DNA of 64,000 bases from Octopus vulgaris. Its lineage: Eukaryota. The notes under the pieces were generated by a model. It did no database searches. It saw only the letters and a program-made list of their open reading frames with translations, and was not told the origin of the DNA. Below, piece after piece: positions 6,796 through 56,130 of the stretch; within the stretch, counting starts at the first letter, position 1; every line of letters begins with the position of its first letter. The DNA lies in the NCBI GenBank assembly GCA_951406725.2, contig OX597830.1, forward strand, positions 31,496,001 to 31,560,000. The letters run 5' to 3'. A program made the position numbers and the translations under genes.

Positions 6796-6903
6796 TTGGT
6801 GGTGGTGGTGGTATATGTGCCCTCTTGAGGGTGCTTACGGCTTTTAGGGGACCAGATTATGATCCATGTAAAGTGCGGTTTGTTGTCAATTGATATAAAT
6901 ATT

Positions 6904-7507
6904 TATTTCTTTATTGCCCACAAGAGGCTAAACAGAAGGAACAAACAAAGACAGGCAAAGGGATCAAGTCAATTATATCGACCCCAGTGCGTAACTGGTA
7001 CATATTTAATTGACTCTGAAAGGATAAAAGGCAAAGTCAACCTCGGCGGAATTTGAACCCAGAACGTAGCGGCAGACGAAATACCTATTTCTTTACTACC
7101 TACAAGGGGCTAAACACAGAGAGGACAAACAAACAAGGACAGACAAACGGATTGAGTGGATTATATCGACCCCAGTGCGTAACTGGTACTTATTTAATCG
7201 ACCCTGAAAGGATGAAAGGCAAAGTCAACCTCGACGGAATTTAAACTCAGAACGTAGCGGAAGACGAAATACCTATTTCTTTACTACTCACAAAGGGCTA
7301 AACACAGAGAGGACAAACAAATAATGGCAGACAAACGGATTAAGTCGATTATATCGACCCCAGTGCGTAACTGGTACTTATTTAATCGACCCCTAAGGGA
7401 GGAAAGGCAAAGTCGACCTCAGCGGAATTTGAACTCAGAACGTAGCGGCAGACGAAATACCGCTAAGCATTTTGCCCGGCCTGCTAAGGGTTCTGCCAGT
7501 TCGCTGC
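6904..7507 (-). mobile_element. Head-to-tail trimer of SINE family B
   Basis: Full unit 7507-7274, then head-truncated units 7273-7086 and 7085-6904. Both junctions read ...AAAGAAATA|GGTATTTCGTC on the minus strand. Confidence 0.9.
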
Positions 7508-7764: not shown

Positions 7765-8435
7765 ACAAAGAGTCGACTCAGGTGAAGAGCCAATCCCAAG
7801 CGGAGAGTTAATCCCAGAGGGAGAGTCAATCTCAGACGAAGAGTCAAACCCGGGCGAAGGGTCAATCTCAGGCAGAAAGTCAATCTCAGGCAAAGAGTCA
7901 CTCTCAAGCGAAGAATCAGTCTCAGGCAGAGTCAATCTCCGGCAAAGAATCAATCCCAGACGGAGAGGTAATCTCAGGCAAAGAAAGAATCAACCACAGA
8001 CGAAGAGTCAATCTCCGGCGAAGAGTCAAACTCAGGTGAAGAGTCACTCTCAGGCAAAGAACCAATATCCAGCAAAGCATCAATCTCCGGCAAAGAGTCA
8101 ATCTCAGGCGAAGAGTTACTCTCAAGCGAAGAATCATTCTCAGGAGAAGATTCAATCTCCGGCAAGAGTCACTCTCAAGTGAAGAATCAATCTTAGGCGA
8201 AGAGTCAATCTCCGGCAAAGAATCAGTTCCAGGCGGAGAGTTAATCTCGGGTAAAGAAAGAGTCAATCTCAGACGAAGAGTCAATCTCTGGCGAAGAGTC
8301 AATCTCAAACGAAGAGTCATTCTCAAGCGAAGAACCAATCTCCAGCAAAAAGTCAATCTCTGGCGAAGGGTCAGTCTCAGACGGAGAGTAAATCTCAGGC
8401 GAAGAATTAATCAGAGACGGGGAGTCAATCAGGCA
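7765..8435. repeat. 18-bp minisatellite (consensus GAAGAGTCAATCTCAGGC), about 36 copies, with a ~273-bp higher-order period
   Basis: Period is directly visible. The shared insertion aaagaaag recurs at 7980 and 8253. Confidence 0.9.
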
Positions 8436-9197: not shown

Positions 9198-9560
9198 TGT
9201 TAAGCTAAGTTAAGTTAATTTTTTTGCTCATAAAGCAAAAAGCAAGGCCATGTAGGGGGGACATGGAGTTATGTACAGGGGTGTTCATGCAAAGAGTTCA
9301 GGCCATTTGTGGTCAAGAGAGACTTTGAACCGAGCGGTCGTCGGCATCTTCACTATCTCGTCTGGCAGCTTATTCCACGGATCCGCAACCCGGACGGAGA
9401 AGGTCCCTCTCCTTCGATTGAGATGAAATCGTCGCAGATAGAGCTTTTCGGAGTGACCCCGCAGCCTACGCTCTGGAGCAGGAATGAAGAACTGAGGGCT
9501 TCGAAATGGTTTCTTTTCAAAAAGGTACACATTTGACAATGTAGTCTGCCATACACTGTG
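9198..9560 (-). mobile_element. 5'-truncated CR1-clade LINE
   Basis: ...LRGHSEKLYLRRFHLNRRRGTFSVRVADPWNKLPDEIVKMPTTARFKVSLD... matches the CR1 ORF2 C-terminal pattern (RGH.KL / FS.RV..WN.LP / FK..LD). Ends in a (TTAAC)-like repeat tail. Confidence 0.9.
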
Positions 9561-10159
9561 TCTGTAGGGTCCTGAGAAAGTGGCGAGGATTTGATCGGGT
9601 AAAATGATAAATTTTGAAAGATCGCTAAAAGAAGAAGAAAGAATTTCTAAAGCCTTGGACAAAGGCCCTGATTGTAGTCCAAGAGACACTATGCTTTCTC
9701 GCCACCCACCACCATAAAAAGACAGATTTGTTATGGTTGGAACGAACGTTATCCTTAAGTTTATTAGATCAAGACTAACCTGGTATTAAACAACCGCAAG
9801 GGAAAAAAAGCTTCTTCACAGCATCACTGCATCCCCAGCATCCCGGCGCAGCCAGCTTCTACTACCATTTCTTTTTTCACCGTCATCATCATCATCATTA
9901 TCATCATAAACATCGTAATGACGATACCAGCCCTTATCTCTCACCCCGTACCACATCTCTGATATCAGACCAAACTCCCCACTGACTTCGAAACAGAGAC
10001 CACATGTTCTATGTCCTAAATACAGAGCATGGCGTGCCTTGTTTAACAAACATAAATTTGTTTATATAATATTCTCTTGTTACCTCTCTACACCACCCTC
10101 TCGCCATCTCTCTTTCTCTCTCTCTCTCTTTCCCACCCCCTTTGTGTGTGCGTGGGACT

Positions 10160-27083: not shown

Positions 27084-27340
27084 TATATATAGGCTCAGGC
27101 ACAGCTGTGTGGTAAGAGGCCTGCTTCCCAATGACATGGCTCTAGGATCAGTCCCACTGCATGGTACTTTGGGCAAGTGTCTTCTACTATAGCCTCAAAC
27201 CAACCAGAGCCTTGTGAGTAGATTTGGTAGACAGAAACCGGAAGAAGCCCACCGTATTTATATATATATATAAATTTTTTTCTGTAATGAGATTAAAAAA
27301 ACCAACGCAGTGTAGATTTTAGAACAATTATATATAGAAG

Positions 27341-27388
27341 GTCTTGCAGCTGTTTCTAGGATATTTATTATATCCCTTCATTGGAGAC
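27341..27388 (-). ncRNA. Degenerate mirror copy of the hammerhead motif
   Basis: GTCT-CCAATGA-AGGGATATAATAAATATCCTA-GAAA-CAGCTG-CA-AGAC. Core and cleavage triplet are mutated. Confidence 0.6.
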
Positions 27389-27578
27389 GGTGTGAGAAGA
27401 TGGTTAAGTAATAGTTAATTTAGATAAGATACAAAGTAGAGAGAGAGGTGGAGGAATGAAAATAGATGTGAGATATGCAGGGATATTGTACAATATCCCT
27501 GCATATCTCATATCTCCACTTTACTCTCTGTTTCGTATCTTATCTAAATTAACTATTGCTTAACCATTTTCTCACACC

Positions 27579-27626
27579 GTCTCTGATGAAGGTATATGAT
27601 AGATATCCTAGAAACAGCTGTAAGAC
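27579..27626 (+). ncRNA. Minimal type-I hammerhead ribozyme motif
   Basis: GTCT-CTGATGA-[aggtatatgatagatatccta]-GAAA-CAGCTG-TA-AGAC: stem I GTCT/AGAC, palindromic stem III, GUA triplet. Stem II closure is imperfect. Confidence 0.75.
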
Positions 27627-29014
27627 CATCTATTTATAAATGTTCTAAAATCTACACATCCTTGGTTTTTTATCTTGTTACGGAAAAATTTTTTTTTATA
27701 TACACACGGTGATATATGACCTAGGTTGGACCCCTTATTTGCATAATCACCGAACCTGGAACTCAGCTATAGTCTATCCATAAGCACATATTCAGTATTA
27801 CCTGACACCTTTGGTTCTTACTGACACCATTACCACTCATAACCTATATATATATATAAATTTATATATATATATATACATTACAGATATAGGGTGAAAG
27901 ATAATTAATTAAATAAAATCAACAAATTTCAACTAGTAGTTTTTCGGCATGGAAAAGGACCACATTCAGTAAAAACTTATACAAAAAGTTTTTTTATATA
28001 TAATTATAACAATAAGGGTTTTGCAACAAGTTGCTTGACCACATACCGAAAATTTTATGTCCCTGTAACTTAGTGATTTGGCAAAAGAGAATGATACAAT
28101 AATTCCTGGGGTCAATTTGTTTAACTAGAGGTCATGCTCCAGCATGGCCACAGTCAATGACTGAAACTAGTAAAAGAATAAAACAATAAAAGAATATACT
28201 CTCACACATATATGTGAGTGGATATATACATGCATTAATCTTACACACACATGCACACACTCTCTGTCTCTCACACACACACACAGACACACATGAATGT
28301 AAATACATATGCATTATAATCTGGCTTACTGAAGGCCTTTGCAACATAATACTGAAAGGGCCTGCAAGACAAATGAGTCTGATGCAGTTCATCTTGAGCT
28401 TGATAGGCACCTGTGTAACAATGATGTCATATAATAAATACATAGGTGTGAATGAAAACTCAGGAAGGTGACATACTGCAGAGCAAGGGCTGAGAAAAAC
28501 AGTTTTTGTGTGTCCATGTTTGTACTGCACATGAAGGATGTCAAGGGTGAAAAACCTTATTTCCAAATTTTAAACCCCCAAAATTAGGAGGTTCCTTATA
28601 CACATTAAAATACAGCCGATTTCTTGCAAAAGTAATTCTCTAGCCAAAGTGAACTAACTTTGACTTTACAGACACTGGGTACCTAGGGTTATATTATCCA
28701 CTGTGGCCTTCATTTTTATGTCAGTAATAAATGATTTAAAAATTTAGTTGTTATTTCTAACATGTTGATCAACTGCATAGAAGTCTTGCTTACTGTTGTG
28801 TTGCTGGTGTTTAACTGCAGACCAGCTCATATCAAGCACACATTTGAGATGAACCAAAGACAATCCAGCAATGACCACCCTTTCCTTTTTGTTTTTTTCC
28901 TAGACATAATGTATCTAGGATTACATAATTTAATGTTTCATTCCATTTGTAATAAGGATAATAATGGTTCCTGACATTGCTTATGCTTAAACAATTAAAG
29001 CATAATACTAATAC

Positions 29015-41216: not shown

Positions 41217-42015
41217 GGCACAGGAGTGGCCGTGTGGCAAGTAGTTTGCTTACAAACCATATGGCTCTGGGTTCAAACTCACTGCGTGGCACCTAGGGCA
41301 AGTGTCTTCCGACAAAAGCCATGTGAATGGATTTGGTAGATGGAAACTGAAAGAAGCCCGTCGTATGTATGTGTGTGTGTGTGTTTATGTGTTTGTGTGT
41401 GTGTGTGTTTACGTGTTTGTGTTTGTCCCTCCAGCATTGCTTGATGACCGATGCTGGTGTGTTTACATCCCCGTAACTTAGCGGTTCGGCAAAAGCGACA
41501 GATAGAATAAGTACTAGGCTTACAAAGAATAAGTCGTGGGGGTCGATTTGCATGACTAAAGGTGGTGCTCCAACATGGCCACAGTCAAATGACTGAAACA
41601 AATTAAAGAATATATTTTTTACTTATTTATTCTTGTACTTGTTTCTGTCATTTGACTGCGGCCATGCTGCAGCACCACCTTTAGTCGAGCAAATCAACCC
41701 CAGGACTTATTCTTTGTAAGCCTAGTACTTATTCTATCAGTCTTTTTTGCTGAACCGCTAATTTATGGGGATGTAAACACACCAACAGTGTGGTGGTGAG
41801 GGGACAAACACAGACACACAAATACACACACACACACACACACACACATACATGACAGGCTGCTTTCAGTTTCTCTCTACCAAATCCACTCACAAGGCTT
41901 TGGTTGGCCCTAGGCTATAGTAGGAGATACTTGCCAAGGTTCCACACAGTGGGACTGAACTTAGAACTGTGTGGTTGGTAGGCAGGCTTCCTACCATACA
42001 GCCATGCCTGCACCT
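41217..42015. mobile_element. Tail-to-tail inverted pair of family-A SINEs (41217-41610 +, 41633-42015 -)
   Basis: Two near-full copies in opposite orientation about 25 bp apart. Confidence 0.85.
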
Positions 42016-45448: not shown

Positions 45449-45531
<83 letters not shown>

Positions 45532-45532
<1 letters not shown>

Positions 45533-45789
45533 CTTTATTTAAAAGCAGCAGAAATATAACAAAAGCTGTTACTCAGAGTTTCACATTCCCATTCGTTGGA
45601 CAGTTTTGTTAAAATAGAACAGAAATAATGATATGATCAAAACTAGTTAAAGGATACACCTTTAAAAATGGATTTGTTTCATTGCTCTTTTCAATTAATG
45701 GTCAATAAAGCATAAAGCATATTACTCTACCACTGGTATTTGAGTACTCTTTTTTTCCACCTTGTTTCACATTTATGTGCTTATTCTCA

Positions 45790-55436: not shown

Positions 55437-55482
<46 letters not shown>

Positions 55483-55487
55483 TATAT

Positions 55488-55680
55488 AAAGTTAATCCAA
55501 ACAAGAAAACAAAAAAAACACAACAACGCAAGGACGTGGAACAATTAAAGTATTATTGGACGCTCAGGAAAGAAGGGAAGAAGGAGGGTTTAATGTTTCG
55601 AGCGGAGCTCTTCGTCGGAAAGATAGGAGAAGGAAAGATCCCGAGAAGGGAAGACAGAGGAAAAAAAAAATCGCCGGTGG
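55488..55680 (-). mobile_element. Penelope-like pLTR-type insert in (TA)n with hammerhead motif at 55589-55621
   Basis: TTT-CCGACGA-A-GAGC TCC GCTC-GAAA-CATT-AAA. The stem III and cleavage region look CpG-decayed. Confidence 0.55.
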
Positions 55681-55804
55681 TATATATATATATATATATA
55701 CCGGAGTAAATACATAAATGTGAAACAAGGTGGAAAAAAGAGTACTCAAATACCAGTGGTAGAGTAATATGCTTTATTTAAAGCAGCAGAAAATTCAACA
55801 AAAC

Positions 55805-55842
55805 CTGTTACTCTGAGTTTCACATTGCCGTTCGTCGGACAG
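55805..55842 (-). ncRNA. Minimal type-I hammerhead with U4C core
   Basis: CTGT-CCGACGA-ACG GCAA TGT-GAAA-CTCAGAG-TA-ACAG: stem I CTGT/ACAG, GNRA-capped stem II, quasi-palindromic stem III, GUA triplet. Confidence 0.75.
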
Positions 55843-55856
55843 TTTTTATATATAGT

Positions 55857-56130
55857 GGAGGTGTAATGGTCCAGTGGTTAGGGCAGTGGACTCGCGGTCA
55901 GGGGATCTCAGTTTCGATTCCCAGACCACGTGTTATGTGTGTTTATTGAGTGAAAACACCTAACTCTCCACGAAGCTCTGGCAGGGGATGGTGGCAACCC
56001 CTGTTGTACTCTTTCTTCCTGTTTCTTGGACTGGCATCTCGTCCAGCTTGTGGGGACACATATGCCATAGAAACCGGGAAACCGGGCCCATGAACCTAGC
56101 TATACTTGAAAAGAGCACATAAATAAAAAT
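55857..56130 (+). mobile_element. SINE family C
   Basis: ggaggtgtaatggtccagtggttagggcagtggactcgcgg...gtttcgattccc head. Confidence 0.85.

What the first reader, a model, noticed from the sequence alone, without database searches (positions are those of the whole stretch)
55589..55842. Two unrelated adjacent hammerhead motifs that both use a CCGACGA (U4C) core
Seen: two different inserts in one (TA)n tract each hold a hammerhead fold with CCGACGA in place of CUGANGA (55621-55589 and 55842-55805). The paralog at 45603-45566 has CCAACGA, the expected CpG decay of CCGACGA, so C4 is probably ancestral in that family. The 27388 motif (CCAATGA) may be a third case. Inference: the lineage has a repertoire of non-canonical hammerhead cores in Penelope-like repeats.
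Basis: partly seen in the sequence, partly recalled or inferred. Interest (0 to 1): 0.72.

Follow-up and report, generated by a model that had tools for sequence, protein, structure and literature searches.

The report
C4-core hammerheads in Penelope elements
These are tail stubs of two unrelated jumping-gene families, each carrying a hammerhead-shaped RNA with C in place of a normally fixed U in thousands of genomic copies; the change likely makes a slower self-cutter that the elements tolerate, though cutting is untested.

Summary
Observation confirmed. Motif A (55842-55805) ends a stub of a Hydra-clade Penelope-like element and motif B (55622-55588) a stub of a Neptune/Nematis-type one. They are neighbours because both target (TA)n. 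C4 is a family trait: a CCGA descriptor gives 11,317 genomic matches (control 83), CUGA 7,012 (125), purine-4 only 829 (360). Both families also have U4 subfamilies. In B the U4 clade looks older; in A it nests inside C4 lineages (AU p=0.004, one outgroup), a likely reversion. Among B subfamilies 0-1 of 28 core and stem columns changed against 28-30 of 167 outside (p=0.02-0.05), weak evidence of selection. The third family (27388) is mostly C4 too. The window's B copy is decayed. CCGA is known and active in viroid-like RNAs; I found no paper on it in Penelope elements, but could not read Lünse 2017. This scan noted CCGA Penelope hammerheads before, in this genome and two others. Cleavage is untested and copy ends show no clear cut footprint. 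New variant of a known kind; interest 0.42.

The parts
55701..55847 (-). Family A stub: 5'-truncated 3' end of a Hydra-clade Penelope-like element
   Evidence: 97.6% to locus L365; family ORF with RT and C-terminal GIY-YIG, CxCX5C linker in L155; 6,434 core-free pattern matches
55805..55842 (-). Hammerhead motif A: stem I 55842-55839/55808-55805, core C3 55838, C4 55837, GAAA 55821-55818, palindromic helix III 55818-55810, predicted cut after 55809 (GUA)
   Evidence: cofold of two copies pairs the palindrome between molecules
55681..55700 (.). (TA)n run between the two stubs; shared target
55491..55682 (-). Family B stub: 5'-truncated 3' end of a Neptune/Nematis-type Penelope-like element
   Evidence: 94.9% to L323 tail; L324, L325, L327 share ORF (90-91%) and 3' UTR up to the motif; RVT_1 E 1e-4, below the Pfam cut-off; 8,454 core-free matches
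55588..55622 (-). Hammerhead motif B: core C3 55618, C4 55617, extra A after A9, 4-bp stem II, GAAA 55599-55596, predicted cut after 55592 (GUU). This copy is decayed at 55622 and 55594
55440..55490 (.). (TA)n run 3' of stub B
45528..45706 (-). Older family A paralog; motif 45603-45566 with CCAACGA (G5A, the CpG-decay product of a C4 core); an inverted copy of the family tail starts at 45712
   Evidence: 78% to nearest relative, used as outgroup
27260..27702 (.). Family C head-to-head inverted pair. Minus arm motif 27388-27341 (CCAATGA); plus arm motif 27579-27626 (CTGATGA). Both words are one CpG step from CCGATGA, the commonest family core
   Evidence: arms 27296-27459/27508-27671, 87%; 549 matches; core tally; extent

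Best explanation
The two motifs are minimal type I hammerhead folds at the 3' ends of two unrelated Penelope-like retrotransposon families that carry C at core position 4 in thousands of copies, and this C4 form is likely a slow, dimer-dependent self-cutter that the elements tolerate because they are likely copied from uncut RNA. Shown: the sequence anatomy, the family identities, the copy numbers, the switching between U4 and C4 subfamilies, and that inserted copies keep the whole motif. Inferred: two motifs in a tandem transcript pair through the palindromic helix III and cut after GUA or GUU, perhaps helped by the element's protein; C4 lowers the rate without abolishing it; selection in active master elements keeps the rest of the core and lets position 4 switch between the two pyrimidines only. 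The window copies are single, neutrally decaying stubs, and copy B is probably inactive.
For: Core-blind samples: B 72 CCGA, 4 CCAA, 3 CTGA, 3 other, 8 without core, of 90; C4-type A tails 31 CCGA, 5 CTGA, 3 CCAA, 31 without core, of 70. Position 4 under one descriptor: C 11,317 (control 83), U 7,012 (125), A or G 829 (360). Three unrelated families place different Watson-Crick stems in register around the same core. B subfamily-level changes: 0-1 of 28 core and stem columns against 28-30 of 167 outside, Fisher p 0.017-0.055; the hammerhead positions that changed are N4, H17 (U, C, A, never G) and at most one stem base, while private changes are similar in all classes. C4 is the majority at 55617 in runs of four organism labels (U share 6-20%). 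CCGA hammerheads cut: zeta virus ZV1 (-) strand in vitro with 5' RACE (10.64898/2026.09.16.752053); a viroid U4C variant has lower activity but stays infectious (cited in PMC3088659). Dimer need and low rates of Penelope minimal hammerheads (PMC4209133). In the anole element, hammerhead mutants did not reduce insertion and cutting needed protein (PMC11167929).
Against: No cleavage data for these motifs. No clear footprint of cutting: 3 of 90 B copies begin within 2 nt of the predicted cut, all beside a TA run, and 0 of 70 A copies begin at it. In a mutational scan all single mutants of the CUGA turn had low activity (PMC9901934 passages). The known active CCGA cases are type III ribozymes with full stems, not minimal dimers. 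In A, C4 allows a competing CCG/CGG hairpin. The selection test is marginal, the core alone is not significant (p 0.22-0.37), and copies were collected with anchors in and beside the motif. No compensatory pair change was seen inside either family; one B subfamily has a U-U mismatch in stem I. The youngest, ORF-rich A subfamily has U4, which may mean U4 is fitter.
Confidence: 0.62

Rival explanations
1. C4 motifs no longer cut. The fold is a relic, or is kept as a binding or folding element for the RT, and the families spread because cutting is not needed.
For: Catalytic mutants did not reduce insertion in vitro in the anole element; no cut footprint in copy ends; CUGA single mutants are weak; competing hairpin in A; Naiads spread without canonical hammerheads (PMC8557442).
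Against: B kept every other core letter through five sampled C4 subfamilies while flanks changed; no sampled subfamily fixed G5A although C4-G5 is a CpG; purines at position 4 are rare; CCGA ribozymes cut in viroid-like RNAs.
Confidence: 0.23
2. C4 is adaptive tuning: a slower ribozyme leaves more uncut template, so C4 lineages were selected repeatedly, with changes at the base before G12 adjusting the rate.
For: C4 arose in at least two clades and outnumbers U4 for the B-type descriptor; C4 B copies look younger than U4 ones (terminal branches 0.024 against 0.041, n 51 and 11, p 0.005); in A, 64 of 65 CTG cores have A before GAAA and 0 of 34 C4 cores do (hand count).
Against: Family A went the other way and its U4 subfamily is the most abundant. 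The link with the base before GAAA rests on one branch in A, is loose in C and absent in B. U-to-C and CpG C-to-U are common mutations.
Confidence: 0.13
3. The folds are chance matches in AT-rich repeats.
For: No monomer folds better than shuffles; no hammerhead row among the Rfam rows shown.
Against: 2 descriptor hits against 0.03 expected; position at the 3' end of RT-EN elements; same stem I and helix III as the published Hydra-2_aMil hammerhead.
Confidence: 0.02

Closest known systems
Minimal type I hammerheads of metazoan Penelope-like elements (Cervera and de la Peña 2014, PMC4209133; parts 1-2 of 4 read)
   Same: Type I layout, short stem I, extra base after A9, palindromic helix III for dimer formation, mostly single truncated copies, inverted pairs; B has G10.1-C11.1.
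   Different: The core variant named in the text is U3-A8; U4C is not named in the parts read (figures and supplements not seen). Here C4 is fixed in whole subfamilies.
Hydra-clade elements and their hammerheads (Craig et al. 2021, PMC8557442; passages, section 11, supplement part 2 of 59 and search hits)
   Same: Family A: single ORF, C-terminal GIY-YIG without CCHH, CxCX5C linker, (TA)n targets. Stem I and helix III match Hydra-2_aMil; the extra base on each side of stem II occurs in many Hydra rows.
   Different: All 34 rows of File S2 (26 Hydra) have CTGA, found with a CUGA descriptor. Family A has C4 lineages and a 2-3 bp stem II. Its motif differs from that listed for Hydra-1_Obim.
CCGA (U4C) hammerheads of viroids and viroid-like RNAs (PLMVd variant, cited second-hand in PMC3088659 and PMC9608096; zeta and betaviroid-like RNAs, 10.64898/2026.09.16.752053; passages)
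   Same: The same core substitution, natural, with cleavage retained.
   Different: In the zeta and betaviroid-like RNAs they are type III ribozymes in one strand of RNA circles; here they are minimal type I motifs in DNA retrotransposons with thousands of copies.
Poseidon element of the green anole (Frangieh et al. 2024, PMC11167929; parts 1-2 of 4 read)
   Same: Penelope-like element whose copies keep the whole hammerhead and carry optional 3' tails; likely the same template logic.
   Different: Its core was tested only at C3/G8; different clade; its ribozyme overlaps the ORF start, whereas here it lies 1-3 kb behind the ORF.

Membership tests
Hammerhead ribozyme, minimal type I | Core C3 U4 G5 A6 N7 G8 A9 ... 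G12 A13 A14 | tested here: not met
   All letters present except U4, which is C in both motifs and most B copies; a known tolerated variant
Hammerhead ribozyme, minimal type I | Stems I and II in register, A15.1-U16.1, H17 not G | tested here: met
   Met for window A and for typical B and C copies; the window's B copy has only 3 bp of stem I
Hammerhead ribozyme, minimal type I | Palindromic helix III that allows a dimer | tested here: met
   A: 4+4 bp with a central mismatch, paired in cofold; B family 4 nt, broken in the window copy; C 8 nt
Hammerhead ribozyme, minimal type I | Compensatory changes in stems | tested here: inconclusive
   Different complementary stems between families A, B and C; none seen within B; no formal pair count was run
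Hammerhead ribozyme, minimal type I | Site-specific self-cleavage | not testable with these tools
   Only assembled contigs were available, which cannot show RNA ends
Penelope-like element, Hydra clade (family A) | Single ORF with RT and C-terminal GIY-YIG | tested here: met
   507-aa open stretch in L154; 1,953 relatives at E<=1e-10, many near 710 aa; C4 copies joined to EN or RT pieces in L361, L372, L378, L379, 4 of 30 loci; Pfam gave no family
Penelope-like element, Hydra clade (family A) | CxCX5C linker, no CCHH motif, (TA)n target | tested here: met
   CxCX5C in L155 (second C altered in L151-L154, L158); no CCHH seen in the EN; TA flanks
Penelope-like element, Hydra clade (family A) | RWK and DKT motifs; placement in an RT tree with reference elements | not tested
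   N-terminus not recovered as an open frame; no reference tree built
Penelope-like element, Neptune/Nematis type (family B) | RT, CX2-5CxxC linker, GIY-YIG with CCHH, in sense upstream of the hammerhead | tested here: met
   Read across broken frames in L323, L324, L325, L327; RVT_1 E 1e-4
Penelope-like element, Neptune/Nematis type (family B) | Neptune versus Nematis by RT phylogeny | not tested
   No reference tree built
Penelope-like element (family C, 27388) | Joined to a Penelope RT-EN ORF | tested here: inconclusive
   The RT piece in L150/L335 lies downstream of the stub behind another repeat; only the inverted-pair layout and the motif support it
Non-LTR retrozyme | Tandem array of non-coding units, each with a type I hammerhead | tested here: not met
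   Window copies are single stubs and both families have ORF-bearing members; definition from 10.64898/2026.07.22.740005, part 1 of 5

The most novel reading that the evidence does not exclude
Position 4 of the hammerhead U-turn is a rate dial in Penelope-like elements: unrelated clades in one genome have switched between U4 and C4 in both directions under selection, with C4 ribozymes active but slow so that enough uncut template survives. Searches fixed on CUGA would then have missed a large share of animal hammerheads, more than half of one motif type in this genome.
Probability: 0.2. Interest if true: 0.68.

Novelty: new variant of a known kind. Interest (0 to 1): 0.42.

Why it matters
Whether Penelope hammerheads do anything in vivo is open. 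Families A and B supply natural sister subfamilies, about 95% alike around the motif, that differ at one core letter and switched in opposite directions, so rate and fitness can be compared directly. Descriptors fixed on CUGA also undercount these motifs: for the GAAACGTYA type, C4 outnumbers U4 here by 11,317 to 7,012. It is a modest advance, since both the motif class and the U4C core are already known separately.

Tried and rejected
Rfam scan: microsatellite-driven miRNA hits only among the 150 of 460 rows shown. Monomer folding: uninformative. Cut footprint in 5' ends: B 3 of 90, confounded by TA microhomology; A 0 of 70, with L235 starting 3 nt past the site at an inversion. A generic CCGAWGA search with a 3-nt helix III spacer gave chance-level counts, 304 against 346 control, so it adds no further family. 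Expression: no RNA holder listed; runs only guessed to be RNA, contigs only. Composite A+B element: rejected, 5 of 388 fetched loci have both within 400 nt, and these include the window twice and one other place twice. C4 A copies as purely non-autonomous: suggested, rejected. Family C link to an RT: first assumed, withdrawn. CTGA in B as pure CpG decay: rejected, 30 CTG against 6 CCAA in the first 100 (hand count), and 13 of 16 T4 copies form one clade. CCGACGA at 9344 is not a hammerhead. Pfam found nothing for the family A ORF. Lünse et al. 2017 and Ambrós and Flores 1998 were not held. Sequence look-ups in earlier findings were blank.

Full report
Observation. The window lies in a 2.8-Gb, microsatellite-rich animal genome, likely an octopus. 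That is an inference from genome size, an Argonauta relative among the protein hits and earlier notes. On the minus strand the order is: a common dispersed repeat, a short TA run, stub A (55847-55701), 20 nt of TA, stub B (55682-55491), a long TA run. CCGACGA starts at 55838 and 55618, CCAACGA at 45599 and CCAATGA at 27384. Motif A meets a full minimal type I descriptor. The window has 2 such hits against a mean of 0.03 in 60 shuffles. Motif B misses it in this copy, because 55622 and 55594 differ from the letters in over 95% of laid depth in four runs. Monomer folding is no better than shuffles, as expected for dimer-type motifs (PMC4209133, parts 1-2 of 4).

Family A. A pattern that leaves the core free has 6,434 matches. 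Long copies carry an RT with a C-terminal GIY-YIG domain about 1 kb upstream of the motif, in sense, with a CxCX5C linker in L155 and no CCHH motif seen. These fit the Hydra clade (PMC8557442, section 11); no reference tree was built. In the first 100 matches I count by hand 65 CTG cores, 34 with C4 and 1 garbled. Of these, 64 of 65 CTG cores and 0 of 34 C4 cores have A before GAAA. C4 copies are mostly short, but 4 of 30 longer ones join EN or RT pieces 62-90% identical to the U4 protein, so C4 lineages were autonomous. A tree of 51 copies (150 columns; position 4 and the base before GAAA masked; copies without about 90 nt of upstream sequence left out) shows a ladder when rooted on the 45603 paralog: C4 types first, then the U4 clade (100/97) nested inside them. 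Holding the 30 C4 rows together is rejected, p-AU 0.004. The root is one long branch, the inner forks have only 85-93 support and the bootstrap had not settled, so the reversion is likely, not certain. At clade level U4 is ancestral: all 34 rows of Craig's File S2, 26 of them Hydra, have CTGA, and Hydra-2_aMil shares stem I and helix III with A. That table came from a CUGA descriptor, so it could not have shown C4.

Family B. The core-free pattern has 8,454 matches. The first 100 give 63 CCGA, 30 CTG, 6 CCAA and 1 CAGA by hand count. A sample anchored only downstream of the cut site gives 72 CCGA of 90. L324, L325 and L327 share a broken RT-EN ORF (90-91%) and a CA-rich 3' UTR running to the motif, with a CX4CxxC linker and a CCHH-type GIY-YIG; RVT_1 scores E 1e-4, below Pfam's cut-off. 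This is the Neptune/Nematis type. In a tree of 106 copies, 13 of 16 T4 copies form one clade with longer terminal branches (mean 0.041, n 11, against 0.024, n 51; p 0.005; sparser sampling of U4 may inflate this). So B likely went from U4 to C4 and kept C4 through several later subfamilies. The A and B RTs are 22% identical.

Family C. The 27388 motif is one arm of a head-to-head pair; the other arm has CTGATGA. The family has 549 matches, and 24 of 32 matches in 30 loci have C4. Its link to an RT is not shown.

Genome-wide picture. With helix III fixed as in B, position 4 is C in 11,317 matches (reversed-pattern control 83), U in 7,012 (125) and a purine in 829 (360). The C count is mostly family B. 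In public contigs the U share at B's position 4 is 17, 18, 6 and 20% in four organism labels, and at A's position 4 it is 20, 78, 55 and 15%. Depth there is a rough measure, but both forms exist in all four.

Is the fold selected? Clustering the 106 B copies at three thresholds, subfamily-level changes hit 0-1 of 28 core and stem columns and 28-30 of 167 outside columns (Fisher p 0.017-0.055; core alone p 0.22-0.37). The changes inside the motif are N4, H17 (U, C or A) and at most one stem base. Private changes run at 1.3-2.8% in core, stem and outside columns, as for neutral decay after insertion. Copies were gathered with anchors in and beside the motif, so this is suggestive only. No compensatory pair change was seen within B; the support for the stems comes from three families having different complementary stems around one core.

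Mechanism. Shown: inserted copies nearly always keep the whole motif; 3 of 90 B and 0 of 70 A copies begin at the predicted cut. Inferred: reverse transcription uses uncut RNA, as in the anole element, where catalytic mutants still inserted and cutting needed protein (PMC11167929, parts 1-2 of 4). Two motifs in a tandem transcript would pair through helix III; cofolding pairs this palindrome in both A forms. C4 is expected to slow the cut. A viroid U4C variant lost much activity yet stayed infectious (PMC3088659, passages and section 8; another paper cites it as not affecting cleavage, PMC9608096, one passage). A CCGA zeta-virus ribozyme cut at the right site in vitro (10.64898/2026.09.16.752053, passages). 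Against this, single mutants of the CUGA turn were weak in a mutational scan (PMC9901934, passages), and in A, C4 allows a competing hairpin. I put tolerated slow cutting at 0.62, a non-cutting relic at 0.23, adaptive tuning at 0.13 and chance at 0.02.

Novelty. Eight library searches found CCGA or U4C hammerheads only in viroid-like RNAs, none in Penelope elements. Lünse et al. 2017, the largest survey of Penelope hammerhead variants, and Ambrós and Flores 1998 were not held; PMC6765202 (passages) mentions only dimer cleavage for the former. The figures and supplements of PMC4209133 were not seen and may bear on this. Earlier notes of this scan report CCGA Penelope hammerheads in this genome and in two others; they are unchecked and not independent support. 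What this window adds is C4 in a second, non-Hydra clade, opposite directions of change in A and B, and the pyrimidine-only counts. Verdict: new variant of a known kind, interest 0.42.

Noticed in passing
L323 4395-5700 and 8517: An RT-EN ORF only 65% identical in DNA to those of L325 and L327 sits upstream of a near-identical family B tail and motif; possible tail swapping between RT lineages.
   Followed up: no
window 55838-55828 (-): C4 lets CCG pair with the CGG of stem II in family A, a hairpin that competes with the catalytic fold; the U4 sister does not form it in the prediction.
   Followed up: partly
L018 near 1062, L029; lists: A further hammerhead family with a 6-bp stem II appears with both CTGA and CCGA cores; possibly a fourth switching family.
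   Followed up: no
L151, L152, L154, L156, L158: Family A insertions are often head-to-head inverted pairs with a short-tail and a long-tail end, the Penelope 'tail' signature; many short copies start about 14-17 nt upstream of the core.
   Followed up: partly
L163-L192, L263-L322: Family B 5' ends pile up about 95-105 nt upstream of the downstream anchor at a TA-like microhomology site, not at the predicted cut.
   Followed up: partly
window 55856-56120: Common dispersed repeat, matching 44 fetched loci, whose TA end received both stubs.
   Followed up: no
window 6897-7461 and 7768-8430: Tandem arrays of 188-nt and 18-nt units.
   Followed up: no
window 41559-41681: Long hairpin formed by inverted ends of a common repeat; scores as MIR5070 below the gathering threshold.
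   Followed up: no
window 9288-9785 (-): Stop-free stretch ending in a C-terminal piece of a LINE-type RT protein that also occurs in L130 and L328; family name not tested.
   Followed up: no
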